Positions 18,141 through 34,800 of a stretch of DNA of 64,000 nucleotides are shown piece by piece. Position numbers and translations under genes: made by a program. Under the pieces are notes generated by a model that was not told the origin of the DNA, made no database searches, and saw nothing but the letters and a program-made list of their open reading frames with translations. The stretch's first letter is position 1. Each line of letters begins with the position of its first letter. Source of the DNA: Chlorobium sp. (GTDB lineage: Bacteria; Bacteroidota; Chlorobiia; Chlorobiales; Chlorobiaceae); contig SZYA01000026.1 of NCBI GenBank assembly GCA_005843815.1, positions 3,949-67,948 on the forward strand. Direction: 5' to 3'.

Positions 18141-21100
18141 ATGAATATTGATGCTGTTGTCGAATCCAATGGAGCAGCCTTGTCTGGCGCTGATCTTCTG
18201 AAGAACTTCTGCTCAATGGAGGAATTTGATACTACCGAAAACAGGGAGCTCCGGACGCTGGTTATTGCTGATACCGATATTGAGGATGCTGCTGTTTTAC
18301 TGGAGCAACTTGAGCCGGGGACTGAGCTTTGGCGGGTTGATTTACGGTCGGATTTTGCTGATACTCTTCATAATGCACTCTCAGGAGGATATGATAAACT
18401 TCATTTTGTTGGGCATGGTCAGCCCGGATCGATAACTCTTGGCGGCAAGGTGCTGGAGGCTGAAGATTTTACCGCATTGTCGGGTGCGCAGGTCGATGCC
18501 CCATCCATCCATTTCTGGTCGTGCATGACCGGCGCCGGGGCGAAAGGGCGGGCATTCGTTCATCATATAGCCGAGGCATTTGATACCGTTGTGACAGCTT
18601 TCGGTGGTCTGGTTGGTGCTGGCAACAAGGGTGGCAGTTGGATGCCTGATGTCTTTTCACGTGCAGATGCTTCTGTTGCGCCTCCTTTTGTGAATGCTTT
18701 GGCTTATCAGCACACACTGTTAGCTTCGGCGCTGAAACTGCTCTCAGTAGTTACTGCTACTGGTATAGATGTTCAGGTGAGGTTGGCAGCAGGTACTGTT
18801 ATTGACAAGGCGGATCTTGTTCTGAGTTATGATACTGCGAAGGCGAGCTATACGGGCGCGAAAGGCAATCCTGCCTTAACAGGTTGGAGCTGGGTGCCTA
18901 ATCTTGACTCCCCTGGTCATTTGCTTATAGGTGGTTCTAGCTTAACTTCAATAAACAACAGTACGTCTGAAGTTGTGCTGGCGCGAATCAGCTTTACGCT
19001 TCCTCAGGGAAGCACTGAATTTGGTGCATCATTGGCGAGTGGCACCACGCTTTTGGTCGGTAATTCACAAGTGTCATTGGGCACACTTCCGACACTGGAT
19101 ACCATCCTCATCTCATCGGTGCCTGTCTGGCAATCGTTTACACCGCCAAGTGATTTAACCTATACCGCCGGTTCGACAATTTCTCTTGATTTTCCTCTCT
19201 ATGCGACGGATCCGGATGGGGATGCCATAACCTACAAGGCTTCTGTGGGGCAAATGGTTGACAACATATTTTTTGGCGTAGCCAATGCTCAACAAATTTC
19301 TCTAACATTGTCGAACGGCCATTTGACAGGCAGTACAACTGTGCCTGCACAGGCTGCAGCGGGTAGCTATGTGATGCGCTTGCTTGCTGATGACAAACTC
19401 ACGGATACGAATAATGGAGCTGCTCTTGATGTGCCTTTTTCCGTGATCTCTACGGCGACCATCAATAATATCACCATTAACACCACCGGCAATGTCAGTG
19501 GAACTCCTCTTCCAAGCGAGAGCTACTATGCATTCCATTCAGCCACAGATGTTCTTGCCGCAATTGGAGATTACGGTTTCAGCCTTAATCTCAAGACTGA
19601 TACCGACACCAATCCCCTTACCTTCAATGCAAGCTGGAACTGGCTGAACTCTTCGGGAAATATCAGCCAAACCAGTGCTGGCGTGCTGACGTTTCAGGAT
19701 ACTGATACCTCTAAATCTGGCCCTGAGCTATGGAGTGTAACATTCAACAATGTTGACACTGGAGTGCTTCTTGCGGATGGTACTGATGCCGATACTCTTC
19801 CTGATGGTTTTGTGAGCAATGATGTCAGCTTTCCGCTGGTGTGGCAGGCAAAAGATGCAAACAATGTCATTGCCACCTTTACAGCTACGGGGAAGGACTC
19901 CAGCAACTCTGATGTTACCATCAATGGCGTGTTGAAAGACACCAACAGTGATGGTAAACCAGATACCATAGCCGGAACACAGGGCACCCAGACCTTTAAT
20001 CTTCCCTTCAGTTTCACGGATACCAACAATGATAGCATACCTGATCATTTCACCATAACAGAATCCCAGATACGATCAGGTCGTGTTCAGGTGGATGCAT
20101 CGGGTAATCCTGCGGGGCTCTATCTCAATAATTCGATAACCTTTGACCTTGGCACCACCGGAGCTGCGCTTGCTTCATTGGGCTCGATTGTGGTCAAGCT
20201 GGCGACGGCAAACGCGGGTATGAACGGGGCTAATGTTTCGGTCGCTTCACTGACGTTTGATGGCACGCATCTTACGGTTCCTCTTTCAGGAACTGATGCA
20301 GTTACCTCCCAACCCTATTATTTGTACCCAAACTCCGGTGCAGATATTTTTGTTAAGGTGCCTGCAGGAGTTGTGGTGGGGCAAACTGATATCGTCAAGG
20401 CGTGGCAGGTGGGCAACGTGGACAACAACAGCTACTCACTTTCACCGATGACGGTTGTGGGGAGTAGCGGCACAAGTGGCGCAGACTGGGTAACGGGTAC
20501 CGCTGTTAATGACAGCATTGAGGCTGGAGCGGGGAATGACATCATTCAATGGTCGGCTGGAAATGATACGGTAGATGCTGGCGACGGCTATGATAAAGTG
20601 TATTTGCAGCTTTCAACTCCTGCTACATCAAAAGAGCTTGATGCCGCAGGGGTGCTTCATATTAAAACAGTGGCAATATCAGGTACAGGTACCAGTACTG
20701 GTACTGGTACTGGTACTGGTACTGGTACTGGTACTTCGACCATGGTTGATGCCTACAGGATTACGAAAGAAGCGGCTGCTGATTCTTTTAAGATCCAGAA
20801 AATGGATACCGCTGGCACCTCTGTTGCGCAGACCATGATCCTGAAAAATGCAGAGCTTGTTGCTGCTGGTTCCCAGACATTTCAGCTCAAGATTGCCTCT
20901 GGTGGTGGTCAGTATGTCAGTGGTACCCCCTGGGATGATCAAATCAATCTTGATGCAGCATCTCTTGGAAATTTGGTGCAGGTTTTTGGTGATACCGGCA
21001 AGGATCTTCTTGTGGTTGATATGGGCGCAGGATACAACAAGTTTGAGATGGTCAAAAGTGGAACCTCCTATCTTTTGAAGGGTACGCTCATTTCAGGTGG

Positions 21101-24100
21101 TTCCCTTGTTGAGCTGGGCCATCTAATGCCCTTACAATATGGCAACGGTGCTACGATGACGGTGGGTACAGGGACAACCGCCAAATCTTTCGGGGTTTAC
21201 GATATTGAATCATTCCGCCTTGTCTCTGGCAGTGTGATTTTTGATGTTGATTCATCACAGTTTGCTGAGGTTTCGTTTTATGGAAACAGTTATCAGAACA
21301 ACATCTATGGCACATCCAATGCAGATACTATTGATGCCGATGCTCTGGCTTCTGCCAACAGTGCCACCACAAATAAGGACTGGATCTATGGCATTGGCGG
21401 AGCCGACAGCATCAAGGCTGGTACTGGTGATGACTACATTGATGGTGGCACTGGTAATGACACGATTGACGGTGGCGCTGGCAATGACACTGCGTACTTC
21501 CAGGGCTCCAAGTCTGATTATACAGTGACCAAGGGCACGGATGCGGGGGGGAAATACCTTGAGGTAACGGGCAAAACCGGTGAGGTTGACAAGCTGTACA
21601 ACATTGAAGTGCTCCAGTTCATGGATGGCAGGCAGGAGTTCTCGGTCACCTTTAATGCTGCCTATGACAGCAACAACTGGTCGAGCAACACTATCAACGG
21701 CACGGGTCTGGATGATGTGATTGATGCTGATGCCCTGGCAGCGGAAAATCCATATAAGGGGAGCAAATGGCTTACGATCAACTTTACTCCGGGGCAGACG
21801 GACTATGTGCTTGGAGCAAAGGATTTTGCCAATAATGGTACGGTTTCCTTTACAGCCACAGAACTTTCAAGTCTGACTGCTGCCAATCTTGAACTCAGGC
21901 ATAACGGCCAAGTAGTTTCAACGCCTCTCAGTGGTGTTACTGTAGCAGACATAACTAATGGCAGCTATATTTTGCACTGGACTGGCACCACAACTCCGCT
22001 ATCGTCAGTATTCACTGTTGATGTGGAAGCGGTTAACAGCCATAACGACAGGATTGAGGGCAACGAGGGGAATGACTCTATTATTGCTGGTGCCGGTGAT
22101 GACACTGTTCATGGTGGAGCAGGTAATGATTCTATAGATGGCGGTTCAGGCAAGGATACTGCATCGTATAATGGAAATACGTCAGATTACACGATTACCA
22201 ACGCTAATGGCGTGTTGACGGTCACGGACAACAACACGACCAATGGTGATGATGGCACAGATACTCTCCTGAATATTGAGCGCTTGCAGTTCCTGGATGG
22301 TGATCAGGTTCTTGCGGTGAGCTTTACAGCGGCAAACGACAGTGGAAGTTATGCGCAGAATAATATCACCGGCACGCTGCGTGATGACACCATTGATGCC
22401 GACGCTCTTGCTGCGGCTTATGTTGGAACTCTGGCGACGCACCGTGACTCAATTGATGCAGGAGCGGGCAACGACTTGATAGATGCAGGGCTCGGAGGAG
22501 ATCAGATTCGTGGTGGAGTGGGTAATGATACCATTGATGGTGGTGAGGATACCCTGGCAGACCGACTTCTGACAGTTAATTCCAACAACGGTTTCGGTTT
22601 TGAAAACCGGGCGATATACACCGGCCAGGCAAAGAAATACACGATTACCGAACACATTGGCGAAGCAGGTAACAGCGATCATGTTCCTGCAGGGCAGCGC
22701 TATTATATTGTTGAGGATACCCGGAGCGGCTTCCCGGATGGCACAGACATTGTGTACAATGTTGATACCTTGCAATTCAGCGACAAGGAGGTGCGTCTTT
22801 CTGCCAGCCTCTGGTTTAACCGCTTTTCGCAGGATACACTTGTTACTCCGACTGGATCACTGGTCGATAGCGCGAAAACCGTTACTGCTGCCGATTTTGC
22901 GCCCGATCAGCAGTTGTCACAAGTGACGTTCAGTCGTGAACAGGTAAATGGTACCTTGAGGTTGAATGGGGTTGATTTAGTTTCGCTTGTTGTCAGTGGT
23001 GCTGATATTGCCGCAGGGAAACTCACCTTCCAGCCCTCTTCTGGTCAAGATTTCAGCCTCCGTGCCAATGTTGAAGTGTATAACCTCAATGCTGATGGCA
23101 CAGCTTATGCTGATACCATTGGTTATGCCTTCGGCGCTACGGTGCCCACGGGAAGTTACGACTTCAGCGGTTCCGATCGTCTGAATGGTGGAGCAGGGAA
23201 CGACAAGCTTTACGGTGGATCAGGAGCTGACACTTTCAGAGGAGATGCAGGCAATGATACTATTGATGGTGGAACAGGTCGTTCCTTGCTGAGCAAGGCT
23301 ACCTGGGATCCCAATGGCTCCAATGGCTATGATGTTGCCGAGTTTACAGGCATTGCCAGCCGTTACTCTATCACGTTCACGAATGATTTGGGTGTCACTG
23401 TTGATGGCTTCGATCCGGCAGGATCGGTTATTGTTAAAGACAGCAAGCTTGACAGCAAGGGTGGTGATGGCACGGATACGTTGAGCGGTGTTGAAGTGCT
23501 TCGTTTCTCCGACGGTGAGAAAAATCTTTCTGTTCTGGAGTATGAGAATTTCTACTATGACTGGCTGACCCAGGCAAAAATTTCCACAGGGTATCGCTGG
23601 GAGGGCAGCGATTATGCTGATACCATCACGTCGACTTCTCCCCTGCGCGATGAAGTGCATGCCAAGGCCGGAAATGACACGATATCGACCGGAGGAGGCG
23701 GTGACTGGATAGATGGAGGTGAAGGAAATGACACTATTGATGGCGGAACCAATGGTACACTTGATCAGTGGGTCAACATAGCCGTCGACATAGCAAATTA
23801 TGATGCTCCAATGCGCCGTTTCGATATCACAAAGAATGGTGACGGAAGTATCCAGGTAACTGATCGTCTTGGGGCGGAATTTGGCGGGTTTGGAAGTGAC
23901 AAGCTGAGCAATATCGAGCAACTGCAGTTCAATGATGGTTCAATTGACCTGGCGGTACAGTTTAATAGCAACAATGGCGCTTTTGGTCAGAATAACATTA
24001 CTGGTACTCAGTTTAAAGATGTCGTTGATGCAGACTCTTTTGTTACCATTCAGGGAGGCAATCACAACGATTACATTGACAGCAAGGCTGGCGATGATGT

Positions 24101-27100
24101 GGTCTATGCCGGCCTTGGCGCTGACCGGATCAAGGATGGCACCGGTAACGACTTCTATGATGGTGGAGCCAACGGGACATCTGAGCAGACTTTGAATAAT
24201 CAGGATGTGGTTGAGTTTACAGGGGCACAGAAACGTTATTCTGTTGATGTGATTAAATATGCCGATCTTGATAGCACCGTAAAGGCCAATATCACAGAGA
24301 AGTACTCGGGTGCAGATATTCCTGCGACGATAGTTCGTGTGACCGACAAGATTCCCGATGTTAGCGGTGGTGACGGGGTCAACTACCTCATCAACATTGA
24401 GCGCATCCAGTTCCAGGATGGCGGTATTGATCTCGGCATTAATTTTAACCCTGCATCTTCAGGAGCATCATGGGATCGTAACAATATTCAGGGTGGTCTG
24501 CTCGATGACAGTATCAATGCCGATACGCTTGGGAGCAGCGCACCAGTTCACCGCGATTATATTGATGGCGGCGCCGGTAATGACACCTTGCTTGGTGGGG
24601 CCGAGGGTGATGAACTGAGGGGAGGTCTCGGCAATGATGTGCTGGATGGAGGAGAGAACGGTGCGGCAGACGAAAATGGTTACTTCGATCCGTGGCAGGA
24701 TCTTGATCGTGCCACCTTCAGCAATTCCATCAATCGTTACGATATACAGTTTTTCCGCACAGAGTCGGGTGGTGGTTACAACAATATGGGTGTTGCCTTA
24801 GCGAATGGTGGTTATGCCAAGTCCGATTATTACACTGACTCGGGCATTATTGTGGTACAGGATCTCTATGATGCGGCACATGGTGGTGAAGGTCGTGATG
24901 TTTTGAGTAATATTGAGGTCTTGCAGTTCAGCGATACCTGGGAGCAGCTTAAGGTGCAGTACCAAAGCTCTTCCTATGACCAGTATGGATATGTAGACAA
25001 GGGGGCTGGTAACTGGAGCTGGGAGATGACTGGAACAATCAATCGCCTTGATGGTTGGGGTACTCGTTTCGGGGATCTGATGGTCGGGACAACCAATGCT
25101 CAAAACAATCTCAATGGCAACGGTGGTAACGACAGTCTTGTTGGTGGTGCCCTTCGTGACGACCTGCATGGTGGTGCCGGTAACGACACCATTGATGGTG
25201 GTGGCAACCCGAGTCCTAATCCGACCACACCCTGGGATACCAGCGGTTATGATGTTGCCTGGTTTGATGCCGATCGCAGTGAATTTGAAATTACTCAGAA
25301 TGGTAACAGCTTTACCGTCAAGCATCTTATTCCGGAAAGTCTTGGAGGACAAGGTACTGATATTGTGCGAAATGTCGAACGTTTGCAGTTCCGTGATACT
25401 TCTGAGGATCTTGTCGTTTTGGTTACGCAAGGAGCAAGTCATAAGAATGGTGACGTTTGGGTAACTTATTCAAACTACGTTGGCACTAATTTTGCCGATA
25501 ATGTTCAGGATGCCGTCGCCGGAGGAGAGAGCGACTTCCAGATGAAGAACGGCAACGACACGGTTGTCGCGGGCACTGGCAATGACCACGTCAAGGCAGG
25601 TGGTGGGGATGATCTCATCTATCTTGATACAACAGATATCAATGCTTCTGGTGGTGGTGATGACCAGGCCAACCTTGGCACAGGCAATGACACCGTCTAT
25701 GGAGGCACAGGCTATGACAATGTCTACTACGACGACGCCGTCCAACGCTATGCGATAACTGTTCATGCCTCAAATGGTAACGCACAACTGGCAACCTTCT
25801 CTCTGGCTGGCCCTCCTTCTGGGGCAGGTGTTTATTCAGGAACCCTTAACTTTACGAATACAACCCTGGGCAGCAGCTACGACGATACAACGATGTATGT
25901 CAAGGTTGTCGACACCCTTGCTGAGCAGTATGGCGGTGAGGGGACGGATCAGTTGCATGGCATTGAGCAGATAACCTTTGAGGGGGGAATCCTCCATCTG
26001 CAAACTGGCACGATCAATGAAGTGACTTACCAGACAGGTGATTTTGCAGTAAAGGAGACAACAGTTGGTACAGATGGCACAAATGGCACCAGCGCAAATG
26101 ATACTATCTCGGGTACCGACGGTACTGACTGGCTGCAGGGCTGGGCGGGCAATGATTTGCTGAGCGGAGGCGCCGGTGATGACTCACTCAACGGTGGTCT
26201 TGGCAACGACACTCTGATCGGTGGGCTCGACAATACCGCTGACCGGAACAGCTACTGGAACGCTGGCGACACGGCACAATATGCCGGTGCCGTCCGTGAA
26301 CGGCTGCATATCAGCGGGAAGATGACTGACTCCAACGGTTCTGTCACTGGGACGTCAGGAGAGAGCTATTATATCGTGACAGATCTTGCTTCATTGAAAG
26401 ACAAAACATTAGCAGACGAATTAAAATACTTTTCCAGTAATGTCAATCAAAACGTGGGTTACGGGCAGGATGCCCTTGTCGGAATTGAGCGCATACAGAT
26501 TGGCGATTCACTACTGCAGCTTGCACCGGTAACCAATACATCTACCTGGACAAGCTCCTGGTGGGATTATACGACAGGGCAGAGCCATGAGTATCAGGTG
26601 TCGCGCACCTATATTACCGGCACCTTCCTGGACGATCTCCTGATGAGCACAACAAACGGGGGCGATGAGATTGACGGCAAGGGAGGTAACGACACCATTG
26701 ATGGAGGCAATGAAACTGCCGCTCTTGGCAACCTTTGGGAAATTCAGGATGTGGTGCGCTACACTGGATCTCGGGAACGTTATATCGTCAAAGGTGTGCT
26801 TGTTGATATTGCAGGGACAACCTATACGATTGTTGACCCCTCCAATGCCAAAGCAACCTCCGTTTTTGGTATTCAGATCCAGGATGTGCTGCCTGACAGC
26901 GCGGGCGGTACCGGCACTGACCTGCTGGTGAACATTGAGCGGGTTGAATTCAACGGTTCACAGCTCAGTATCAAGCCAATGGTCAATACATCTTTTGATG
27001 GCTCAGTCAATGTTCAGGGTACCGAATTTGACGATGTGCTGAATGGCAAGGAGGGCAATGACCAGATCAGTGGCAATGCAGGCAATGATACCCTGCTTGG

Positions 27101-30100
27101 CGGTGCCGGAGGCGATAACCTTGAAGGCGGCGCGGGTAATGATGTGCTGGTTGGCGGTGCCGATGGTGCCAACTCCTGGGAAACCGATACTGCACGCTAC
27201 AATGCAAGTATTGACAGGTTTACCGTGGAATCGGTTTATGTGAACAGTAGCTATGCTGTTGTCGACTCTGGAACAACTGGTGCAATTGCGGCTTACCGTG
27301 TCACTGATATTTTGCCGGCAACTGACTCAGCGTCACTTGGCTCCGATATTCTTGTTGGTATTGAGAATCTCAGCTTCAGCGACCGCTGGGTGTCGCTTGC
27401 GGTGAACCGTTGGTCATGGAGTGACGGGCAGGGCAATACCAATGTCAATGCTGAAGGAACGATATTTAACGACATTATTATTGAGCAGGAATCCGGCTCT
27501 CGTGACTCTATGAATGGCAAGGAGGGCAACGACGTGCTGCTTGGTGGCGGTAATGGTGATGCCCTTCGTGGTGGTACCGGCAACGATGTGCTTGATGGTG
27601 GAGCCAATGGCACCAGTGGTCAGGGTTGGCAGGATCAGGATGTAGCTGAATTCAGTGGTCCAAAGGGGAGGTACCTCTGGACAGCCTTGATCACCACTGG
27701 CGATGCGACCACTGGTACGGTTGTATGGAATGGCAGTGAGGTCGGCACAGTTTCTTCTGGAGCATTAACGCTTTCTGACACGCTTTCAACCGATGCAGCC
27801 TCCGTACTGCGCCTTGCATTTACGACCGGCAACCTTTTTGGAAAAGGGGCTGGCTATCTTGTGGTTGATTCACTCTCGGCGGATCTTGGCGGCGATGGCA
27901 CCGATCTTGTCTTTAATGTTGAGCGGTTCCGCTTTAACGATGGTGATGTGGAGCTTGGCATCCGGGCCGATGCCTGGGACTGGAGTGGAGGTGAGGATGG
28001 CGGGCCTGACGGTAAACCCGATTCTGCCAATGTTGTCGGCACAGGCGGAGCTGATCATGTCACTCTCGGCGATATTGCGACACTGACTGCCAAGCCGGGT
28101 GTCTCTGTTGAGACTCAAATCGGTTATCTCGAAAAGATTCGTCTTGATGTTGATCTCAAGGAGGGCGATGATACCTATATTGGTGGCAAGGGAGGCGAAT
28201 CTATCCGTCCAGGGGCTGGAAACGACTACATTGATGCCGGCCTTAACGAGGGAACCGATCAGTGGGGCGCAGCCATGCGCGACGAGGTACATTTTGAAGG
28301 CAAGGTCTCGCGATATGTGATTGAGGATGTCGCCCTGACCAACAGCGGTGGTACCTGGTCTATTACCAGTGACCACGATACCTTGACTTTGACCTCCAAT
28401 ACAACGTTAACGTCAACCAATGCCACCTCACTCACTCTTGACCTTGCAGGGATGCAACAGGGTGTTCTTGCCATGATTGCTCACGCCGAAGGTGCGACCA
28501 CGGTCAACGGCTGGCTGGTGATCGACAAGCTCCCTGCAGAATTTGAGGGAACGGGTGTTGATGCCATTGTTGGCGCTGAGGCGTTTGCGTTCAGTGACTC
28601 CTGGATGCCGCTGACGGTTGATACCTTTTATCAAAGGGACTGGAAGTCGTCAGAGATTATCAGTGCCAATGTTCGTGGCACCGGTGGTGCTGATACCATC
28701 AAAGGCAATGCCACGTATGATTTCAACGGCAATGACTGGATTGAGGGTAACGGTGGCAACGACAAGATCCTTGCAGGAGCTGGTGGCGACAACATTCGCG
28801 GAGGCGATGGTGATGACACTATTGATGGCGGTGCCAATGGTACCCCGGATCAGTGGGGCTACACACCGACCGATACGGCCGCGTATTCCGGAGCCTTTGA
28901 TCGTTACGTTATCACCAGGGGTACCGATACGAATGGCCGCAGTTATGTAACGGTCAGCGATACTGACCCGGCGGGTGATGGCACCGATACGCTTTACAAC
29001 ATAGAAAATCTCGCATTCTCTGACCGTGGGGTACGACTCGGTGTGGAGAGCAACACGTGGCGTGACTGGCAGAGCGACAAGATCATGGGAGTCTCGGTCA
29101 ACGGTTCAATGCTGGCCGACCGCATCGATGCCTCTGCAGATGAATATGTCGGGCTGCCTCACAATATCCAGGGTATGGAGGGCAATGATACCCTCATTGG
29201 TGGCTCCGGACCGGATAACTTCCAGGGTGGCACCGGTGACGACGAGATCATTGGTGGAGAGAACGGGGTTGACCAGTTCGGGAACCCCGGTAATGATGTT
29301 GTTACCTACGATGGCATGTCTGACCGCTATACGGTTACTACTATTGCGGCGGGAACAAAGGTTACCATTGACGGCCATGACTATACCGCCGGAACAGATG
29401 GAGCTATCGTCCAGGTTGTTGACTCAATGAGCGCTGAAGATGGAGGCAATGGCACCGATACCCTTATCGGTATTGAGTCCATCAGCTTCTGGGACAAATG
29501 GATGCCTCTGCAGGTCACCAAAACATTTACCGACTTCAACGGTGATGGCAAGGCAGATGAGGCTTACCAGCGTGGTACAGATGGCGCTGATACGCTGGTT
29601 GGCGGGAGCGTCAATGACCGCATTGATGGCGGTGGAGGTAACGATACCATCACTTCCGCTGCTGGTGGAGATGTCATTACCGGTGGTGCTGGAGATGACA
29701 GTATTGATGGCGGTGATGACGGAACGGATACCTTGGGTAACCCCCTGGTTGATGTGGCTGTTTACTCCGGAAATTACTCAAACTATACCGTAAGTCGTTC
29801 GGTGAGTGGCGTTGTGACCGTAAAGGACAATCGTACCGGCACTGACAATGTGAGCGGCACCGATACCCTCGTCAACGTTGAAGCGTTGCAGTTCAGCGAC
29901 CGCTTTATCGGCCTGCAGTCAACCCGTGAAGTGAAAGACTTTAATTTCGACGGAGTTCCTGACCAGATTGTGCTGCGCGGCACGGATCTTCTTGGTGATA
30001 CGATGACAGTAACGCCTTTGGAAAGCAAAATTAACCATCTTTTCGAAGGGCTTGCCGGGGCCGACAGTTTGACTGGAGGTGAAGGTAACGATCTTTTCGA

Positions 30101-31727
30101 TGGTGGCGCAGGTAATGATACCATTTTTGCTGGTGCAGGCAACGACAAGGCGATTTTCAGCGGCAACTATGGAGATTATACTGTTGTCATGCCCGGTAGC
30201 GCAGGGGCTGATTTTACTGTCACCCACAACAATGGAGGAACAGATGGTGTAGATACCCTGAACAGTATTGAAGAGCTGCTTTTTGCCGACAAGGTTGTGA
30301 AAGTTATTGTTGGTGGGGTCGCGGCCAGTGTTACTTCAATACTTCTTGATACCGATGGTAACAAAAAGGTTGACCAGACCATCTGGACTGGTACCGATAA
30401 TGCCGACACGATTACCGGCAGTGCAAACATGACCAACATTATTGATGGTGGAGCAGGGAACGACACACTTACTGGCTCCAATCTGGCAGATACCTTTACA
30501 CCGGGCGCTGGTAACGATGTTATCGACGGAAAAGGTAACGAAGGGGTGGATGCCAGTGGTATGCAGTCTATGGATATTGTGCAGTTCAGTGGTAACAAGG
30601 CAGACTATACCATTTACACGGTAGAGAAGAGCAACTTCACCTTGTCGGGAGTTGTTGAGGCTGGCGACATCTATACCGTCGTGGTGGGCAGCCAGACTGT
30701 AACGTACACTGCATCTACAGGTGCAACATTGCCAACGGTGGCCACCGGTCTGGCAGCCGCTGTTCAGACAGCGGTAGATACCGCTTCAACGGTTTTCGCA
30801 GCCGCAGCAGATGGTGCCGCTATCACCCTGACAGGTGAGGATATGATATTTGCTGTTACCCCGTCAGTGACCAACGGCATTCGCTCTGCGACTGGTGCTA
30901 CAGGACTTGCCGTAACAGGTGTGACCGTCAGCGGAGCAAACCAGAGCGGCTCCTCTCTTGTGGTGAACAAAGTGGATGGATTGTCGGTGGGCGATTATGT
31001 TGCCTACAGCGTTTTGACGGATCTGAATGGCAACGGTAACACAAGCGATGCCGGGGAGACGGTGAGCTATGGACCCTACAAGATCACCTCAATTGATACA
31101 GGAACAACGAAGACGCTCACCTTGAACAGCACTCTTGGTGTGTCGCCAACTAATGGCGCGACGGTAACGCTGACTGAGGATAACCCCGATACAACGGGCG
31201 CAGTTACCGCAGTGACCTATGACCGTTCTGTTACCGTGAGCAAAGGTGGTGAGAGCGATATTCTGCGAAATATTGAAAATCTGGTATTCGATGACCAGTC
31301 CATGCAGCTCATTGCAAGTCATACATCCAAAGCTGTTATGACCACTTCTGGCCTTGTAACGACCAACTATATCACGGGGACAGCCCTTGCCGATCTGATA
31401 CTGGGAAGCAGCGCAAAAGAGATTTTTACCGGTGGCGATGGCAGCGATCACCTTGTGGTTGGCGATGGCAGCGGTGTGGATCAGGCGCAGGGGTTTGTGG
31501 CTGGTGCCGGTGGCGATGTGCTGTCGATTCTTCTCGGGGCCAATGATACCGATGGCTTGAACGGGACAAAAATAGACACTGTTTCCGGAATCATGGCGCA
31601 CGCCGCTCAACAGGGCAGCGATACCCTGGTAGACCTTGGCGCAGGCAACTCTATTCTGCTGGTGGGGGTTTCAAGCAGCAGCCTCACCGCTGCAAACTTT
31701 GAAATTGTTCATGCAGCAACCTTCTGA
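18141..31727 (+). CDS. Giant (4528 aa) RTX-type Ca-binding repeat protein, a probable T1SS-exported adhesin. Order: DUF4347-like N-domain, cohesin-like region, beta-rich region, about 19 RTX-containing modules, RTX-type C-terminal region
   Basis: Uninterrupted 13.6-kb ORF with an AAGGGG SD. It has dozens of GGxGxD nonapeptides (e.g. 'GGTGNDTIDGGAGNDTAYF'). Each module ends in a recurring 'G(T/S)D.L.N(I/V)E.LQF.D' motif, and I counted 19 occurrences with 390-1005 bp spacing. The C-terminus '..GSDTLVDLGAGNSILLVGVSSSSLTAANFEIV' is typical of T1SS substrates. There is no N-terminal signal peptide. Confidence 0.9.
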   Translation: MNIDAVVESNGAALSGADLLKNFCSMEEFDTTENRELRTLVIADTDIEDAAVLLEQLEPGTELWRVDLRSDFADTLHNALSGGYDKLHFVGHGQPGSITLGGKVLEAEDFTALSGAQVDAPSIHFWSCMTGAGAKGRAFVHHIAEAFDTVVTAFGGLVGAGNKGGSWMPDVFSRADASVAPPFVNALAYQHTLLASALKLLSVVTATGIDVQVRLAAGTVIDKADLVLSYDTAKASYTGAKGNPALTGWSWVPNLDSPGHLLIGGSSLTSINNSTSEVVLARISFTLPQGSTEFGASLASGTTLLVGNSQVSLGTLPTLDTILISSVPVWQSFTPPSDLTYTAGSTISLDFPLYATDPDGDAITYKASVGQMVDNIFFGVANAQQISLTLSNGHLTGSTTVPAQAAAGSYVMRLLADDKLTDTNNGAALDVPFSVISTATINNITINTTGNVSGTPLPSESYYAFHSATDVLAAIGDYGFSLNLKTDTDTNPLTFNASWNWLNSSGNISQTSAGVLTFQDTDTSKSGPELWSVTFNNVDTGVLLADGTDADTLPDGFVSNDVSFPLVWQAKDANNVIATFTATGKDSSNSDVTINGVLKDTNSDGKPDTIAGTQGTQTFNLPFSFTDTNNDSIPDHFTITESQIRSGRVQVDASGNPAGLYLNNSITFDLGTTGAALASLGSIVVKLATANAGMNGANVSVASLTFDGTHLTVPLSGTDAVTSQPYYLYPNSGADIFVKVPAGVVVGQTDIVKAWQVGNVDNNSYSLSPMTVVGSSGTSGADWVTGTAVNDSIEAGAGNDIIQWSAGNDTVDAGDGYDKVYLQLSTPATSKELDAAGVLHIKTVAISGTGTSTGTGTGTGTGTGTSTMVDAYRITKEAAADSFKIQKMDTAGTSVAQTMILKNAELVAAGSQTFQLKIASGGGQYVSGTPWDDQINLDAASLGNLVQVFGDTGKDLLVVDMGAGYNKFEMVKSGTSYLLKGTLISGGSLVELGHLMPLQYGNGATMTVGTGTTAKSFGVYDIESFRLVSGSVIFDVDSSQFAEVSFYGNSYQNNIYGTSNADTIDADALASANSATTNKDWIYGIGGADSIKAGTGDDYIDGGTGNDTIDGGAGNDTAYFQGSKSDYTVTKGTDAGGKYLEVTGKTGEVDKLYNIEVLQFMDGRQEFSVTFNAAYDSNNWSSNTINGTGLDDVIDADALAAENPYKGSKWLTINFTPGQTDYVLGAKDFANNGTVSFTATELSSLTAANLELRHNGQVVSTPLSGVTVADITNGSYILHWTGTTTPLSSVFTVDVEAVNSHNDRIEGNEGNDSIIAGAGDDTVHGGAGNDSIDGGSGKDTASYNGNTSDYTITNANGVLTVTDNNTTNGDDGTDTLLNIERLQFLDGDQVLAVSFTAANDSGSYAQNNITGTLRDDTIDADALAAAYVGTLATHRDSIDAGAGNDLIDAGLGGDQIRGGVGNDTIDGGEDTLADRLLTVNSNNGFGFENRAIYTGQAKKYTITEHIGEAGNSDHVPAGQRYYIVEDTRSGFPDGTDIVYNVDTLQFSDKEVRLSASLWFNRFSQDTLVTPTGSLVDSAKTVTAADFAPDQQLSQVTFSREQVNGTLRLNGVDLVSLVVSGADIAAGKLTFQPSSGQDFSLRANVEVYNLNADGTAYADTIGYAFGATVPTGSYDFSGSDRLNGGAGNDKLYGGSGADTFRGDAGNDTIDGGTGRSLLSKATWDPNGSNGYDVAEFTGIASRYSITFTNDLGVTVDGFDPAGSVIVKDSKLDSKGGDGTDTLSGVEVLRFSDGEKNLSVLEYENFYYDWLTQAKISTGYRWEGSDYADTITSTSPLRDEVHAKAGNDTISTGGGGDWIDGGEGNDTIDGGTNGTLDQWVNIAVDIANYDAPMRRFDITKNGDGSIQVTDRLGAEFGGFGSDKLSNIEQLQFNDGSIDLAVQFNSNNGAFGQNNITGTQFKDVVDADSFVTIQGGNHNDYIDSKAGDDVVYAGLGADRIKDGTGNDFYDGGANGTSEQTLNNQDVVEFTGAQKRYSVDVIKYADLDSTVKANITEKYSGADIPATIVRVTDKIPDVSGGDGVNYLINIERIQFQDGGIDLGINFNPASSGASWDRNNIQGGLLDDSINADTLGSSAPVHRDYIDGGAGNDTLLGGAEGDELRGGLGNDVLDGGENGAADENGYFDPWQDLDRATFSNSINRYDIQFFRTESGGGYNNMGVALANGGYAKSDYYTDSGIIVVQDLYDAAHGGEGRDVLSNIEVLQFSDTWEQLKVQYQSSSYDQYGYVDKGAGNWSWEMTGTINRLDGWGTRFGDLMVGTTNAQNNLNGNGGNDSLVGGALRDDLHGGAGNDTIDGGGNPSPNPTTPWDTSGYDVAWFDADRSEFEITQNGNSFTVKHLIPESLGGQGTDIVRNVERLQFRDTSEDLVVLVTQGASHKNGDVWVTYSNYVGTNFADNVQDAVAGGESDFQMKNGNDTVVAGTGNDHVKAGGGDDLIYLDTTDINASGGGDDQANLGTGNDTVYGGTGYDNVYYDDAVQRYAITVHASNGNAQLATFSLAGPPSGAGVYSGTLNFTNTTLGSSYDDTTMYVKVVDTLAEQYGGEGTDQLHGIEQITFEGGILHLQTGTINEVTYQTGDFAVKETTVGTDGTNGTSANDTISGTDGTDWLQGWAGNDLLSGGAGDDSLNGGLGNDTLIGGLDNTADRNSYWNAGDTAQYAGAVRERLHISGKMTDSNGSVTGTSGESYYIVTDLASLKDKTLADELKYFSSNVNQNVGYGQDALVGIERIQIGDSLLQLAPVTNTSTWTSSWWDYTTGQSHEYQVSRTYITGTFLDDLLMSTTNGGDEIDGKGGNDTIDGGNETAALGNLWEIQDVVRYTGSRERYIVKGVLVDIAGTTYTIVDPSNAKATSVFGIQIQDVLPDSAGGTGTDLLVNIERVEFNGSQLSIKPMVNTSFDGSVNVQGTEFDDVLNGKEGNDQISGNAGNDTLLGGAGGDNLEGGAGNDVLVGGADGANSWETDTARYNASIDRFTVESVYVNSSYAVVDSGTTGAIAAYRVTDILPATDSASLGSDILVGIENLSFSDRWVSLAVNRWSWSDGQGNTNVNAEGTIFNDIIIEQESGSRDSMNGKEGNDVLLGGGNGDALRGGTGNDVLDGGANGTSGQGWQDQDVAEFSGPKGRYLWTALITTGDATTGTVVWNGSEVGTVSSGALTLSDTLSTDAASVLRLAFTTGNLFGKGAGYLVVDSLSADLGGDGTDLVFNVERFRFNDGDVELGIRADAWDWSGGEDGGPDGKPDSANVVGTGGADHVTLGDIATLTAKPGVSVETQIGYLEKIRLDVDLKEGDDTYIGGKGGESIRPGAGNDYIDAGLNEGTDQWGAAMRDEVHFEGKVSRYVIEDVALTNSGGTWSITSDHDTLTLTSNTTLTSTNATSLTLDLAGMQQGVLAMIAHAEGATTVNGWLVIDKLPAEFEGTGVDAIVGAEAFAFSDSWMPLTVDTFYQRDWKSSEIISANVRGTGGADTIKGNATYDFNGNDWIEGNGGNDKILAGAGGDNIRGGDGDDTIDGGANGTPDQWGYTPTDTAAYSGAFDRYVITRGTDTNGRSYVTVSDTDPAGDGTDTLYNIENLAFSDRGVRLGVESNTWRDWQSDKIMGVSVNGSMLADRIDASADEYVGLPHNIQGMEGNDTLIGGSGPDNFQGGTGDDEIIGGENGVDQFGNPGNDVVTYDGMSDRYTVTTIAAGTKVTIDGHDYTAGTDGAIVQVVDSMSAEDGGNGTDTLIGIESISFWDKWMPLQVTKTFTDFNGDGKADEAYQRGTDGADTLVGGSVNDRIDGGGGNDTITSAAGGDVITGGAGDDSIDGGDDGTDTLGNPLVDVAVYSGNYSNYTVSRSVSGVVTVKDNRTGTDNVSGTDTLVNVEALQFSDRFIGLQSTREVKDFNFDGVPDQIVLRGTDLLGDTMTVTPLESKINHLFEGLAGADSLTGGEGNDLFDGGAGNDTIFAGAGNDKAIFSGNYGDYTVVMPGSAGADFTVTHNNGGTDGVDTLNSIEELLFADKVVKVIVGGVAASVTSILLDTDGNKKVDQTIWTGTDNADTITGSANMTNIIDGGAGNDTLTGSNLADTFTPGAGNDVIDGKGNEGVDASGMQSMDIVQFSGNKADYTIYTVEKSNFTLSGVVEAGDIYTVVVGSQTVTYTASTGATLPTVATGLAAAVQTAVDTASTVFAAAADGAAITLTGEDMIFAVTPSVTNGIRSATGATGLAVTGVTVSGANQSGSSLVVNKVDGLSVGDYVAYSVLTDLNGNGNTSDAGETVSYGPYKITSIDTGTTKTLTLNSTLGVSPTNGATVTLTEDNPDTTGAVTAVTYDRSVTVSKGGESDILRNIENLVFDDQSMQLIASHTSKAVMTTSGLVTTNYITGTALADLILGSSAKEIFTGGDGSDHLVVGDGSGVDQAQGFVAGAGGDVLSILLGANDTDGLNGTKIDTVSGIMAHAAQQGSDTLVDLGAGNSILLVGVSSSSLTAANFEIVHAATF
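18249..18650 (+). other. DUF4347-like N-terminal domain of the giant protein
   Basis: 'LVIADTDIEDAAVLLEQLEPGTELW...YDKLHFVGHGQPGSITLGG..L' matches the pattern I associate with DUF4347, which is found at the N-termini of very large RTX/cadherin proteins. Confidence 0.6.
18726..19085 (+). other. Cohesin-like beta-sandwich region (hypothetical assignment)
   Basis: 'GIDVQVRLAAGTVIDKADLVLSYDTAKASYTGAKG....GHLLIGGSS.....EVVLARISFTLPQG' resembles the cohesin hallmark of a hydrophobic strand, then 'x-(L/F)-x-(Y)-D..(L/A)' and a later 'G.i.fa...g.l..i.F.v'. No HMM was run. Confidence 0.35.
20682..20735 (+). repeat. In-frame hexanucleotide microsatellite: GGTACA GGTACC AGTACT followed by 6 perfect GGTACT units, encoding (Gly-Thr)n
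   Basis: Counted directly: perfect (GGTACT)6 at 20700-20735 with imperfect units from 20682. The translation is 'GTGTSTGTGTGTGTGTGT'. Confidence 0.95.
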
Positions 31728-31814: not shown

Positions 31815-34800
31815 ATGGCATACGAAACCGAACACAGCCTGAGTACAGGCGTATCGAATGGTACTGCGGCACAAGCCAATCTTCTCAGTGATGGAGTTCT
31901 CACCATTGGAGCATTGGGCAGTGCCAGCGATGTTGATTATTATAAGGTAGTCACCACCGGTCCTGCCCTGATCAACCTGAGTTTTGCGACAAGTATTACC
32001 TCCAGCTCCACCTACTGGAATATAGGGTTGCTTGATTCGGCCGCCCTCGATTATCTCGTCTCTCCGACTCGATCCTTGACCGGAACACCACAGATTTCTG
32101 GCGCAAGCCAGTCAGGCACCACGCTTAATGTCAAGGGTTTGTCGACGACCCTGCCTGCAGCAGGCAGCCGCTTTACCATTGCCACCTCAGGCGCTGATAC
32201 CACCATTTATACGGTGGTCAGCGCAACCGCAATAAGTTCAGGGACTTCAACATTCACGCTTGACAAGGCGGTATCCTCTCCTGCTGATGCAGCCTCTCTT
32301 GTTTTTGACCCGGTCAATACATCGGTTGGCGCATCAACAACCCTGAAGGCATTGGTGGGTGCGGCGAAAACCTACTATGTCAAGGTAGCAAAGGGAGATG
32401 TAGCATCAACCCAGGAGTACAGTGTAACAGCCACGGTAACCTCTACCGTGGAGAGTGGTTTTAATGATACCAAGGCTGCCGCTGCAACGAGCAATAACCA
32501 TCTGCTGAGTGGTGTGGCGATGACCGGTAACCTGTCGGGTGATACGGATAAAGATGTCTGGCTCTTCACCACAGCGGCAGCATCTGATTTTACTCTCGAT
32601 TTTGCCGCTGCCAGCGGCAGTGCGGCATCAGCCGACTGGAAAACGACGGTCACTGACTGGAATGGGCAGAGTATCCTGAACAGCAATGGGGCTGCGATCT
32701 CTCTCAGTGCAGGCACATCAGCTACGGCCTCCATCTCCCAGGCCTATAATCCCGCACCAAAGACTTATGTTGTTATCGTTGAAGCGGCGAAAACAGGAGC
32801 AAGCACCAGTAATTACACACTGAAGGTGAGCGGCACCGCTCTGGACCTGAATGATACGCCGGTTATGACGGTTGGATCGGTCAGCTCCTCGGCCAGCAAT
32901 ACGGTTATCGATACAGGGGTGATAAAGAGCATTCAGGCAGGCGCAGACTCAACACTGTTGCTCTCCAGCCTTTTTTCAGCCACTGACGCAGATACGTCGC
33001 AGACACTCAGCTATGTGCTAAGTCTTGTCAAGCCTGCCGGATCTGGAAGTGGCGGATACCTTAAGGTTGGTGATGTCGCTTATGGGTTTGGTACAGGGAT
33101 GACATCGCCGGCCAATGTTGCCTTAAGTGCCGCTCAGATGGCGACGGCAAAGTTTTATGCAGGCACAGCAACTGGCGACTTGACCCTTACCCTTCAGGCG
33201 CGCGACAGCTCGGGTGCCAGCGATGGTTCTGATTATGGTGCCTATATGCAGCAGACCCTGCGCGTGGTCGATGCCGGTTATGCCGTCAAAGTATCGGCCC
33301 ATACAACGACTACTCTTCAGGAAGGCGCCAGCAGCAGCACCGATACCCTGAGTATTACTCTTGGGAAAGCGCCGGCCGCAGGTGAAACCGTTACTCTCTA
33401 TCTTGAGCATGGTGGTGAAGCATCCAGCGCTTTCCAGTTGAGTTACAGCACTTCAGTTCTTGGCTTTACCAGTACGAACTATGCAACGCCCCAGACGGTG
33501 ACGGTTACTGCTCGCGAGGATGGCCTGAAAGAGAGCAGCCAGACCGGCAAGGTCAGCTTCAGGGTGGTGAGCAGTGTTACGAATTCGGCGTTCAATGATC
33601 TTCTTGTGGATACACTCACCTACACGTTGACTGATGCCTCGAACCATTCGCCGACCGGTTCGGTTACGGTCACCGGTACTGCAACCCAAGGGCAGACTTT
33701 GACAGCCGCAAATACTCTTGCGGATTCCGATGGTCTTGGCACCATCACCTACCTTTGGCAGCAGAGTAGTGACGATACCAACTGGAGCACCATCGCTGGC
33801 TCGGGGACAGGTTCAACCTATACTCTGGCCAATGCACAGGTGGAGAGGTATGTTCGGGTGCTGGCCAACTACACTGATGCCTTGTCAAATGCCGAATCCA
33901 TCGCCAGCGCGACTCTCTCCAGCAGCGGCTCTTCGGTAAAAATCGGCAATATCAATGACGCACCCACCCTGGCCAACGCCATTGCTGATCAAACAGCCGT
34001 GCGTGGCAACATCTACAATTTCACTGTTCCGGCCACTGCTTTCAGCGATATCGATCCGGCTAACAGCGGCGGCACCCTGAGCTACACGGCAACTCTTGAA
34101 GATGGGTCAGCGCTCCCATCCTGGCTGACGTTTGCTCCTGCTACGCGTACGTTTTCCAGTACCAATGTAACGGCAGCAGCCTATTCGGTTATCAGTGTGA
34201 AGGTGACGGCTACCGATAATGCTGCAACGCCACTTTCGGTGAGCGATATCTTCACGATAACAGCAGGCGATCCCGTCAAAGGTTCTCCCGTGCTGGCGAA
34301 AGCTCTGGTTGACCAGTCGGCGACCCAGGCAGTCTCTTTTTCTTATACGGCGGCGGCGGCCTCCTTTACCGATACGGCTCCTGATGGCACAACAGATACC
34401 AGTGGAGCCCTCACCTATACTGCCACTCTTGCTGATGGCTCAATCCTGCCGACATGGCTGAACTTCTCCAGCAGTAGCGGCCTTGTTTTTAGCGGAACTC
34501 CGGGGAATGCTGATGTTGGCACCCTGTCGGTCAAGGTGACGGCTTCGGATGGCACCTCTTCGGCAAGTGATATATTTGGCATTGTTGTGGCTAACGTCAA
34601 TGATCTGCCAACGGGATCGGTTGCACTTGCAGGTACTCCGATTCAGGGAAATACCTTGACGGCAAGCAATTCCCTTGCAGATATTGATGGCATGGGCACG
34701 GTGTTTTACCAGTGGCAGTCCTCTTCAAATGGAACGGACTGGAGCAGTATCAGTGGAGCCAACAGTTCAACGATCAACCTTGCCCAGGAGCAGGTGGGCA

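What the first reader, a model, noticed from the sequence alone, without database searches (positions are those of the whole stretch)
18141..31727. Single uninterrupted 13.6-kb ORF built from about 19 iterated RTX-plus-beta modules behind a DUF4347-like head
Seen directly: after a ~780-aa non-RTX head, the protein is a chain of units. Each unit contains 2-5 GGxGxD nonapeptides followed by a segment ending in 'G(T/S)D.L.N(I/V)E.LQF.D'. I located 19 such endings from about 21591 to 31298, with irregular spacing of 390-1005 bp. The units are diverged at the DNA level, so this is old iteration rather than an assembly artefact. The last ~120 aa look like a classical uncleaved T1SS C-terminal region. 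Inference: the DUF4347-like head could serve as a retention or anchor module, as in other giant T1SS adhesins, but that is unproven.
Basis: partly seen in the sequence, partly recalled or inferred. Interest (0 to 1): 0.65.

Follow-up and report, generated by a model that had tools for sequence, protein, structure and literature searches.

The report
Giant segmented RTX surface protein, Chlorobiaceae
This is a real 4,528-residue calcium-binding protein of a green sulfur bacterium, built from 19 copies of a known "RTX block plus linker" unit and probably exported by type I secretion; it is a large but fairly ordinary member of a widespread class.

Summary
ORF 18141-31727 is uninterrupted (4,528 aa, 470 kDa, pI 4.05). 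It has a DUF4347 head and 19 'G(T/S)DxLxN(I/V)ExLxFxD' endings at the stated spacing.

The unit is not a new fold. It matches the RTX block plus inter-block linker/cap module of Bordetella CyaA, including the conserved Tyr/Phe and the (I/V)E motif. It also matches the RTX-like domain of Aeromonas AhLap (PDB 9CSE).

The array is old. Each module has a colinear orthologue at 72-92% identity in a 5,219-aa Chlorobiaceae protein recovered on many independent contigs. The best paralogue reaches only 29-53%.

A cap-only profile finds 7,899 cluster representatives. Dozens of them are giants with 15-40 caps.

The last 138 aa form a domain that is always C-terminal. It resembles the C-terminus of T1SS lipases. 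Relatives carrying it lie beside complete T1SS gene sets, but none is in this window.

The head is not a LapA-type retention module. It is DUF4347 (possibly caspase-like, with invariant His92 and Cys128) followed by a cohesin-fold domain. The next gene ends in a dockerin-like module, an arrangement a 2026 preprint describes for Chlorobium chlorochromatii.

Verdict: new member of a known kind; modest interest.

The parts
18141..31727 (+). Whole ORF: 4,528 aa, 470 kDa, pI 4.05, only 2 Cys
18252..18710 (+). DUF4347 domain (aa 38-190). Alpha/beta fold. His92 ('HFVGHG') and Cys128 ('HFWSC') are invariant. Possibly caspase-like (clan CD).
   Evidence: Pfam E 1.5e-17. Invariant columns in 11 heads. 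AF2 secondary structure. Weak Peptidase_C25 hits in 8 of 11 heads and a weak CHAT hit. Caspase-like BFVD hit.
18723..19115 (+). Cohesin-fold beta-sandwich (aa 195-325)
   Evidence: AF2 block-mean pLDDT about 73-89. All of the top 50 Foldseek PDB hits are cohesins, best E 2.6e-7, TM-score (target-normalised) up to 0.72.
19116..20480 (+). Uncharacterised beta-rich part of the head (aa 326-780). Contains a 'DPDGDAITY' Ig-like stretch. No significant Pfam match.
20481..21269 (+). Transition region (aa 781-1043): one short RTX run, a (GT)n linker encoded by GGTACT x9 at 20682-20735, and a degenerate unit with no recognisable cap
21270..31310 (+). 19 RTX block + linker/cap modules (aa 1044-4390), 124-335 aa each. 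Each has an N-terminal strand 'xIxGTxxxDxI', 3-6 nonapeptides, and a cap 'DxAx(Y/F)xGxxxxYxI ... VxD ... GxGTDxLxN(I/V)ExLxFxD'.
   Evidence: AF2 of modules 15-17. Foldseek to CyaA blocks and 9CSE.
30681..31166 (+). About 160-aa insertion inside the cap of module 19 (aa 4181-4342). The cap HMM match is split around it. No Pfam match.
31311..31727 (+). C-terminal 138-aa domain ending '...LLVGVSSSSLTAANFEIVHAATF'; presumed T1SS secretion region
   Evidence: Terminal in all 7 close homologues and in 19 of the 150 cap-bearing representatives listed. Matches NCBIfam PueAB profile positions 503-614 of 616, E 1e-6. Relatives lie beside T1SS genes.
31815..35675 (+). Downstream gene, 1,286 aa: He_PIG Ig-like domains and a dockerin-like C-terminal module (35298-35672). 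No N-terminal signal peptide is evident.
   Evidence: The same gene order occurs in L008, L010, L011, L013.
35742..40697 (+). Third gene, 1,651 aa: cadherin domains, RTX, one cap ('GTDTITSIEHLKFAD') and a C-terminal hydrophobic tail 'ILIGVGAIGLLAWVFL'. Its domain order (Ig-like repeats, RTX, C-terminal hydrophobic tail) resembles that described for Cag_2037, but the N-terminal cohesin reported for Cag_2037 was not detected here.
40713..40740 (+). Strong terminator-like hairpin (12-bp stem). It is the only terminator-like hit outside the coding sequences after the three-gene run (four weaker hits lie inside the third gene, three on + and one on -), which suggests one operon.

Best explanation
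The ORF encodes a giant, acidic, calcium-binding surface protein of a freshwater Chlorobiaceae bacterium. It is most likely exported C-terminus first by a type I secretion system encoded elsewhere in the genome.

Body. The body is a segmented RTX domain of 19 modules. Each module is a short Ca2+-binding beta-roll closed by a small beta-sheet linker/cap. The conserved Glu of N(I/V)E probably completes the last Ca2+ site, and the conserved Tyr/Phe packs the core, as in the CyaA inter-block linkers. Outside the cell, Ca2+ would fold the modules one after another from C to N. Each folded module would template the next and prevent back-sliding (a ratchet). The product would be a long, kinked, stiff fibre. 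The variable cap loops (6 to about 240 aa) and a few inserted domains would be the likely binding surfaces.

Head. The N-terminal head emerges last. It consists of DUF4347 and a cohesin-fold domain. Its cohesin-like domain probably docks onto the dockerin-like C-terminus of the protein encoded immediately downstream, which would keep the fibre in a cell-surface assembly. The likely role is adhesion or cell-cell contact.

What is shown: the ORF, the modules, the folds, the homologies, the synteny, and the T1SS linkage in relatives.

What is inferred: secretion of this particular protein, folding order, the cohesin-dockerin interaction, and the adhesive role.
For: RTX character: PF00353 E 3.5e-84 over 17 stretches; pI 4.05 and no hydrophobic segment.

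Module profile against PDB sequences: CyaA 7usl E 7e-32. 9CSE scores E 2e-13, and the alignment runs through the cap '...YDIELVQFDDG'.

Structure: AF2 of modules 15-17 has pLDDT 81. Best Foldseek hits are CyaA RTX fragments 7rah, 7usl and 6sus, MIS38 lipase, 9cse (28% identity) and block V 5cvw (TM-score, target-normalised, 0.57).

CyaA linker signature: PMC8486122 describes a conserved Tyr/Phe and an (I/V)EN Glu that binds the Ca2+ of the preceding block. Here 19 of 19 caps have Y/F at DxAx(Y/F), and 18 of 19 have E at N(I/V)E.

Vectorial templated folding of CyaA blocks: abstracts of PMC9120197 and PMC10511787.

C-terminal domain: terminal in all relatives. [quoted passage not shown]

T1SS linkage: relatives with the same C-terminal domain lie next to OEP + AprE-type MFP + ABC genes (L008/L009 and L010).

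Reality of the gene: full-length orthologues of 5,219, 5,206 and 5,518 aa have the same head, 21 caps and the same C-terminus. The 5,219-aa one is listed in 35 blocks of the collection; 21 contigs carrying it were read.

Head and neighbour: cohesin fold; dockerin-like tail in the next gene and the same synteny in four other loci. The Cag_2037/Cag_2038 cohesin-dockerin model is in bioRxiv 10.64898/2026.03.19.712371.
Against: - No T1SS gene lies in the 64-kb window.
- The exact protein is not on record elsewhere, so its length rests on orthologues.
- The secretion signal is inferred by homology only.
- The dockerin assignment is weak at sequence level (PDB E 0.01-0.24), and no structure of it was predicted.
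- Relatives L008 and L010 have the dockerin-like neighbour but no detectable cohesin head. The pairing may therefore not be specific to this protein.
- No binding or localisation data exist.
- The AF2 models used shallow alignments of 10-11 rows.
Confidence: 0.65

Rival explanations
1. LapA/MpIBP/SiiE-type RTX adhesin. An N-terminal retention module plugs TolC, the protein stays threaded through the outer membrane, and a LapG-type protease releases it.
For: It is a giant T1SS-type protein with a distinct, well-conserved N-terminal head and a C-terminal RTX region. A folded alpha/beta DUF4347 domain could in principle not pass through TolC (inference).
Against: No NCBIfam retention-module or LapA-type match in the whole protein or in the head. 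The body is made of RTX blocks, not tandem Ig-like extender domains. No lapG/lapD-like genes in the window. In relatives the same head is joined to bodies that end in dockerin-like or hydrophobic tails rather than in this C-terminal domain.
Confidence: 0.12
2. Released (not anchored) Ca2+-binding matrix or S-layer-like protein. The RTX chain forms an extracellular lattice or gel, and the head has another role, such as enzymatic self-processing.
For: The module profile also matches the RTX-containing S-layer protein RsaA (5n8p, E 7.5e-5). The protein has a very high Ca2+-site density and is acidic. A glycosyltransferase gene accompanies the T1SS in relatives, as is common for surface-layer glycoproteins (general knowledge).
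Against: The cohesin fold in the head and the conserved dockerin-like neighbour point to a specific protein-protein tether. Modules are individually conserved between species, which suggests module-specific roles rather than bulk material.
Confidence: 0.15
3. Pore-forming RTX cytotoxin of the HlyA/CyaA class.
For: The closest solved structures are CyaA RTX blocks. There are weak NCBIfam 'RTX family hemolysin' matches.
Against: The RTX_toxin score is 186 bits against a cut-off of 1000, and the match covers only the repeat region. There is no hydrophobic pore-forming segment: the maximum 19-residue Kyte-Doolittle window is 1.84, in a beta-strand junction. No acyltransferase gene lies nearby.
Confidence: 0.02
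4. Assembly artefact: a collapsed, expanded or chimeric repeat region.
For: The protein is repetitive, the source is probably a metagenome-type assembly, and the exact sequence is not on record elsewhere.
Against: DNA repeats are only 60-86% identical and short. All 19 modules have colinear orthologues at 72-92% in P0288 and, for modules 3-19, at 47-73% in P0294 (modules 1-2 have only weak, out-of-order matches there). P0288 is assembled identically on many independent contigs.
Confidence: 0.04

Closest known systems
RTX domain of Bordetella pertussis adenylate cyclase toxin CyaA: five RTX blocks joined by conserved linkers L1-L4 plus a C-terminal cap (PDB 7RAH, 7USL, 6SUS, 5CVW; PMC8486122)
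   Same: The repeating unit is the same: a nonapeptide beta-roll followed by a linker with an N-terminal Tyr/Phe and a C-terminal (I/V)E motif. It gives the best sequence-profile and Foldseek matches. C-to-N Ca2+-driven folding is presumed to be the same.
   Different: There are 19 modules instead of 5. Blocks are shorter (3-6 nonapeptides against 9-11 in CyaA). Cap loops are longer and highly variable, some with inserted domains. There is no adenylate cyclase, hydrophobic or acylation domain. The head is different (DUF4347 + cohesin fold).
RTX-like ligand-binding domain of Aeromonas hydrophila adhesin AhLap (PDB 9CSE; PMC12077191)
   Same: A single module of the same design: a short beta-roll of about four coils ending in a short beta-sandwich. 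The cap sequences align ('...SLYDIELVQFDDG'), with 28% identity in Foldseek.
   Different: In AhLap it is one domain that buds from an Ig-like split domain in an adhesin made mostly of Ig-like extenders. Here it is the chain itself, iterated 19 times head to tail.
Cag_2037 / Cag_2038 of Chlorobium chlorochromatii (bioRxiv 10.64898/2026.03.19.712371)
   Same: Same bacterial family. An N-terminal cohesin module sits on an RTX protein presumed to use T1SS, with an adjacent gene for an Ig-repeat protein that has a C-terminal dockerin. The two genes downstream of the giant in this window resemble that pair in domain order, although the N-terminal cohesin reported for Cag_2037 was not detected in the third gene.
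   Different: Cag_2037 is 1,527 aa, with Ig-like domains, one RTX region and a C-terminal hydrophobic helix. The giant here has DUF4347 before the cohesin, 19 RTX modules, and a different soluble C-terminal domain.
The 4,334-residue putative RTX protein of Chlorobium limicola noted by Linhartova et al. 2010 (PMC3034196)
   Same: A giant Chlorobium RTX protein singled out for the highest predicted number of Ca2+ sites (almost 200). It is probably the same family.
LapA / MpIBP / SiiE-type giant T1SS adhesins
   Same: Giant size, RTX region near the C-terminus, T1SS export, and a presumed surface fibre with ligand-binding elements.
   Different: No retention-module match, no Ig-like extender array, and no LapG/LapD genes nearby.

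Membership tests
RTX proteins / T1SS substrates (Linhartova et al. 2010) | Gly/Asp-rich Ca2+-binding nonapeptide repeats | tested here: met
   PF00353 E 3.5e-84, 17 stretches; 43 strict G(G)xGxD matches
RTX proteins / T1SS substrates (Linhartova et al. 2010) | Uncleaved C-terminal secretion region | tested here: inconclusive
   The 138-aa domain is always at the extreme C-terminus in relatives. It matches the end of the PueAB T1SS lipase profile, positions 503-614 of 616, E 1e-6. No Pfam match.
RTX proteins / T1SS substrates (Linhartova et al. 2010) | Cognate ABC transporter, membrane fusion protein and TolC-like OMP | tested here: inconclusive
   None in the 64-kb window. Present right beside relatives with the same C-terminal domain in L008/L009 and L010. 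The rest of this genome was not available.
RTX proteins / T1SS substrates (Linhartova et al. 2010) | Acidic pI; no N-terminal Sec signal | tested here: met
   pI 4.05. The N-terminus 'MNIDAVVESNGAALSGADLL...' has no hydrophobic signal segment (direct reading; no signal-peptide predictor was run).
CyaA-type segmented RTX domain (block + linker modules, PMC8486122) | Nonapeptide blocks separated by non-consensus linkers of conserved fold | tested here: met
   19 modules align end to end. The AF2 model gives Foldseek hits to 7rah, 7usl, 6sus and 5cvw.
CyaA-type segmented RTX domain (block + linker modules, PMC8486122) | Conserved Tyr/Phe at the linker N-terminus and (I/V)E(N) near its C-terminus | tested here: met
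   Y/F in 19 of 19 caps. [IVA]E in 18 of 19; module 3 has VD.
CyaA-type segmented RTX domain (block + linker modules, PMC8486122) | The linker Glu coordinates the Ca2+ of the preceding block; Ca2+-dependent C-to-N folding | not testable with these tools
   Needs a structure with ions, or folding experiments
LapA-like RTX adhesins | N-terminal retention module with a LapG cleavage site | tested here: not met
   No NCBIfam retention-module match in the whole protein (E <= 0.01) or in the head (E <= 1)
LapA-like RTX adhesins | Long array of tandem Ig-like extender domains | tested here: not met
   The body consists of RTX modules. The only Pfam hits are HemolysinCabind and DUF4347.
Pore-forming RTX toxins (HlyA/CyaA class) | Hydrophobic pore-forming domain, acylation by an RtxC-type enzyme, full-length family match | tested here: not met
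   NF033943 scores 186 bits against a cut-off of 1000. No hydrophobic domain. No acyltransferase gene in the window.
Cohesin modules | Nine-stranded jelly-roll beta-sandwich of the cohesin fold | tested here: met
   All of the top 50 Foldseek PDB hits are cohesins, E down to 2.6e-7, TM-score (target-normalised) up to 0.72. The model's block-mean pLDDT in this domain is about 73-89.
Cohesin modules | Binds a dockerin partner | not testable with these tools
   Only circumstantial: a dockerin-like module in the adjacent gene and the precedent of Cag_2037/2038
Clan CD cysteine peptidases (caspase/gingipain/CHAT) as the identity of DUF4347 | Alpha/beta fold with a His after one core strand and a Cys after the next; significant profile match | tested here: inconclusive
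   His92 and Cys128 are invariant in 11 heads and follow strands 86-90 and 122-126. Peptidase_C25 is hit by 8 of 11 heads, but below the cut-off (best E 7e-4; 15 bits against 23). CHAT E 0.059. One caspase-like BFVD hit, E 7e-3. No PDB sequence hit.

The most novel reading that the evidence does not exclude
DUF4347 may be a previously unrecognised caspase-like (clan CD) cysteine peptidase domain. It sits at the extreme N-terminus of giant T1SS proteins of green sulfur bacteria. Its invariant His92/Cys128 dyad includes the only conserved Cys in 4,528 residues. It could process the protein itself or its cohesin-dockerin tether, giving a self-contained release switch analogous to LapG or the MARTX CPD, but built into the anchor.
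Probability: 0.2. Interest if true: 0.55.

Novelty: new member of a known kind. Interest (0 to 1): 0.3.

Why it matters
- It shows that the CyaA-style 'RTX block + linker' unit can be iterated about 20-40 times to build half-megadalton proteins, and that this is a common design in environmental bacteria. No Pfam family matched the linker/cap (87-aa cap segment, E <= 10), although it occurs in thousands of protein clusters.
- For green sulfur bacteria, it adds a giant member to the cohesin/dockerin-linked surface protein sets recently implicated in cell-cell contact in phototrophic consortia.
- The individually conserved modules with hypervariable cap loops are natural candidates for ligand-binding sites.
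- The shared head (DUF4347 + cohesin) is a tractable target for working out how these proteins are held on, or released from, the cell.

Tried and rejected
- An alignment of overlapping three-module windows (A3) was useless, because MAFFT aligned the identical overlaps. It was replaced by disjoint windows (A5).
- The word-indexed homologue search with two modules returned only proteins under 520 aa, generic 'calcium-binding protein' hits. It missed the giants. The exhaustive cap-profile search was needed.
- A PDB sequence search with the head profile gave nothing.
- hhalign of the head against the N-terminus of the third gene gave no match, so I cannot say that gene starts with a cohesin.
- Pfam finds nothing in the C-terminal 138 aa, in an isolated cap, or in the module-19 insertion.
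- NCBIfam finds nothing in the head or in the dockerin-like tail.
- An exact look-up of the window's own protein found no record.
DUF4347 alone could therefore not be compared with solved caspase-like structures.
- I considered and rejected the toxin, LapA-type and artefact readings (see rival explanations).
Full report
**Observation**

The window holds one uninterrupted ORF at 18141..31727 (+) that encodes 4,528 aa. Pfam finds DUF4347 at aa 40-168 (E 1.5e-17) and RTX nonapeptides in 17 stretches (E 3.5e-84).

A pattern search finds exactly 19 'N(I/V)ExLxF' endings, from aa 1154 to 4377 (nt 21600-31269). All 19 units align end to end, and a cap HMM recovers all of them.

Within the ORF, DNA repeats are short, 60-86% identical, and limited to the nonapeptide-coding parts. 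The protein is 470 kDa, has pI 4.05, contains only two cysteines and has no hydrophobic segment.

**What the unit is**

Each module has three parts:
- an N-terminal strand, 'xIxGTxxxDxI';
- three to six nonapeptides;
VxD ... GxGTDxLxN(I/V)ExLxFxD'.

A profile of 12 modules matches CyaA (7usl, E 7e-32). It also matches the Aeromonas hydrophila 'large adhesion protein' 9CSE (E 2e-13), and that alignment runs through the cap to '...YDIELVQFDDG'. The 9CSE paper describes a short helix, a four-coil RTX beta-roll and a terminal 'short beta-sandwich motif' (PMC12077191).

An AlphaFold2 model of modules 15-17 has mean pLDDT 80.7 and pTM 0.66. Its best Foldseek matches are CyaA RTX fragments 7rah, 7usl and 6sus, the two-roll MIS38 lipase, 9cse (28% identity) and CyaA block V 5cvw (TM-score, target-normalised, 0.57).

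Goldsmith et al. [quoted passage not shown] They have an N-terminal Tyr/Phe in the core and a C-terminal (I/V)EN. The Glu of that motif coordinates the Ca2+ of the preceding block. The authors proposed that CyaA grew by duplication of block-plus-linker units.

Both signatures are present here: Y/F in 19 of 19 caps and E in 18 of 19. The 'NIExLQFxD' segment is therefore the known linker/cap of segmented RTX domains. It is not plain nonapeptide roll, and it is not a new independent fold. No Pfam family matched it: an isolated cap gave no hit.

**Age, reality and spread**

Related heads occur only in Chlorobiaceae metagenome-assembled genomes from freshwater sites.

Full-length orthologues of 5,219, 5,206 and 5,518 aa have the same head (the 5,518-aa one matches only its DUF4347 part), 21 caps and the same C-terminus. 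The 5,219-aa protein is listed in 35 blocks of the collection. The 24 blocks with the longest contigs were read, and 21 contigs carrying it were found, from ENA, JGI, NCBI and Logan.

Every one of the 19 modules has a colinear orthologue at 72-92% identity in the 5,219-aa protein. Modules 3-19 also have colinear matches at 47-73% in the 5,518-aa one; modules 1-2 have only weak, out-of-order matches there. The best paralogue within the protein reaches only 29-53%. The array therefore predates these lineages, the modules are individually conserved, and an assembly artefact is very unlikely. Module number does vary between species (19 against 21).

A cap-only profile of 58 positions was searched against 1.84 billion cluster representatives. 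It finds 7,899 proteins at E <= 1e-3 and 146 at E <= 1e-30. These include many giants of 2,600-6,200 aa with 15-40 matched caps.

A 2010 review already singled out a 4,334-residue Chlorobium limicola RTX protein as having the most predicted Ca2+ sites (PMC3034196). The architecture is recurrent, not unique.

**Secretion**

The last 138 aa end in '...LLVGVSSSSLTAANFEIVHAATF'. This domain sits at the extreme C-terminus in all seven close homologues and in 19 of the 150 cap-bearing representatives listed, most of them giants. It matches the final part (positions 503-614 of 616) of the NCBIfam profile for the T1SS-secreted polyurethane esterases PueA/B (E 1e-6).

There is no N-terminal signal peptide (direct reading).

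The window contains no T1SS genes. The neighbours are gltBD, a clpX-like gene and the leu/ilv genes. However, two relatives with the same C-terminal domain (4,872 and 4,687 aa) lie directly beside OEP, AprE-type MFP and ABC transporter genes plus a glycosyltransferase.

T1SS export is therefore well supported by homology and by context in relatives. It is not shown for this protein.

**The head**

No LapA-type retention module is detectable.

The AlphaFold2 model of aa 1-330 (mean pLDDT 72) shows two domains.

- aa 38-155 is an alpha/beta domain, corresponding to DUF4347. His92 ('HFVGHG') and Cys128 ('HFWSC') directly follow core strands, and both are invariant in 11 homologous heads. Cys128 is one of only two cysteines in the whole protein.
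- aa 195-325 is a beta-sandwich. All of its top 50 Foldseek PDB matches are cohesins (E down to 2.6e-7, TM-score (target-normalised) up to 0.72).

For DUF4347, eight of the 11 heads give sub-threshold hits to Peptidase_C25, and there is one hit to CHAT, both over the His-Cys region. A caspase-like viral protein also appears among BFVD matches. This points to a caspase-like (clan CD) fold, but it remains unproven.

**Context**

The next gene (31815-35675) encodes a 1,286-aa protein with He_PIG domains. It ends in a two-repeat module, '...VDLLDTIAILKSIVGL...DFDKANGVDLNDAIAILKHVVGL...'. The only PDB sequence hits of this module, all weak, are dockerins in the top three places. These include 4uyp_B, the partner of a cohesin that matched the head.

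The same 'giant followed by a protein with a dockerin-like tail' order recurs in L008, L010, L011 and L013.

The third gene (35742-40697) encodes cadherin domains, RTX, one cap and a C-terminal hydrophobic tail.

Only one strong terminator-like hairpin follows the three genes, at 40713-40740; four weaker terminator-like hits fall inside the third gene.

A 2026 preprint describes the equivalent pair in Chlorobium chlorochromatii. Cag_2037 has an N-terminal cohesin, an RTX region and a C-terminal helix. Cag_2038 has a C-terminal dockerin. The preprint models their cohesin-dockerin interaction as a surface tether (bioRxiv 10.64898/2026.03.19.712371). I could not detect a cohesin at the N-terminus of the third gene by hhalign.

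**Mechanism proposed**

Inference is marked.
1. The protein is exported C-terminus first through a T1SS encoded elsewhere (inferred).
2. Extracellular Ca2+ folds the C-terminal domain and then each block-plus-cap module in turn. This gives a ratchet and a stiff, kinked fibre (inferred from CyaA work: PMC8486122, PMC9120197, PMC10511787).
3. The variable cap loops, and the insertions in modules 2, 4, 13, 14 and 19, are the likely interaction surfaces, as in CyaA, where the linkers bind antibodies and probably the receptor (inferred).
4. The head emerges last. Its cohesin-like domain binds the dockerin-like tail of the co-transcribed neighbour and keeps the fibre in a surface assembly (inferred).
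5. DUF4347 may act as a plug or as a processing peptidase (speculative).

**Verdict**

The finding is real and was accurately described. It is a new, large member of a known kind, the segmented-RTX T1SS proteins. The repeating unit has been structurally characterised in CyaA and AhLap, and its cohesin/dockerin context was recently described in the same bacterial family. Interest is modest. The most interesting open point is the nature of DUF4347.

Noticed in passing
window 18723-19115 and 35298-35672; also L001, L004, L008, L010, L011, L013: A cohesin-fold domain sits in the giant's head, and a dockerin-like two-repeat module (ending '...LVGILRGDVDGSW...') sits at the C-terminus of the next gene's product. 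Some small relatives (P0002, 820 aa) carry both head and tail in one protein. These loci look like islands of mix-and-match surface proteins.
   Followed up: partly
window 40245-40697 (C-terminus of the 35742-40697 product); P0004, P0005, P0007: A single RTX block + cap is followed directly by a hydrophobic tail ('ILIGVGAIGLLAWVFL', 'GALGILAWVIF') with no basic residues after it. This is a third type of C-terminus in this protein set. The 2026 preprint calls the equivalent in Cag_2037 a T1SS signal/TM helix, but its sorting role is unclear.
   Followed up: no
window 18141-31727 (aa 24 and 128): There are only two cysteines in 4,528 residues. Cys128 lies in the invariant 'HFWSC' motif of DUF4347.
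   Followed up: partly
window 20682-20735: In-frame hexanucleotide tandem repeat GGTACT x9 encoding a (Gly-Thr)n linker between the first short RTX run and the module array. It could vary in length by slippage.
   Followed up: no
L008 8543-9778, L010 6790-7977, L005 18267-19544: A Glyco_trans_4_3/Glycos_transf_1 glycosyltransferase gene accompanies the T1SS genes or the giant gene in relatives, which hints that these proteins may be glycosylated. No such gene was seen next to the giant in this window.
   Followed up: no
window 1-720: An ORF at the left edge of the window encodes a Big_5 (bacterial Ig-like) domain. It may be the tail of another large surface protein cut by the window edge.
   Followed up: no
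window 15739-17049: A ClpX-like AAA+ gene (zf-C4_ClpX + AAA_2) lies about 1.1 kb upstream of the giant, followed by a long AT-richer non-coding gap (17050-18140, GC about 0.44). Any link to the giant is unknown.
   Followed up: no
P0288 versus window protein: The orthologue carries about 325 extra residues in the head (after aa 465) and two extra modules near modules 2-3. Whole-module gain or loss therefore occurs between closely related populations.
   Followed up: partly
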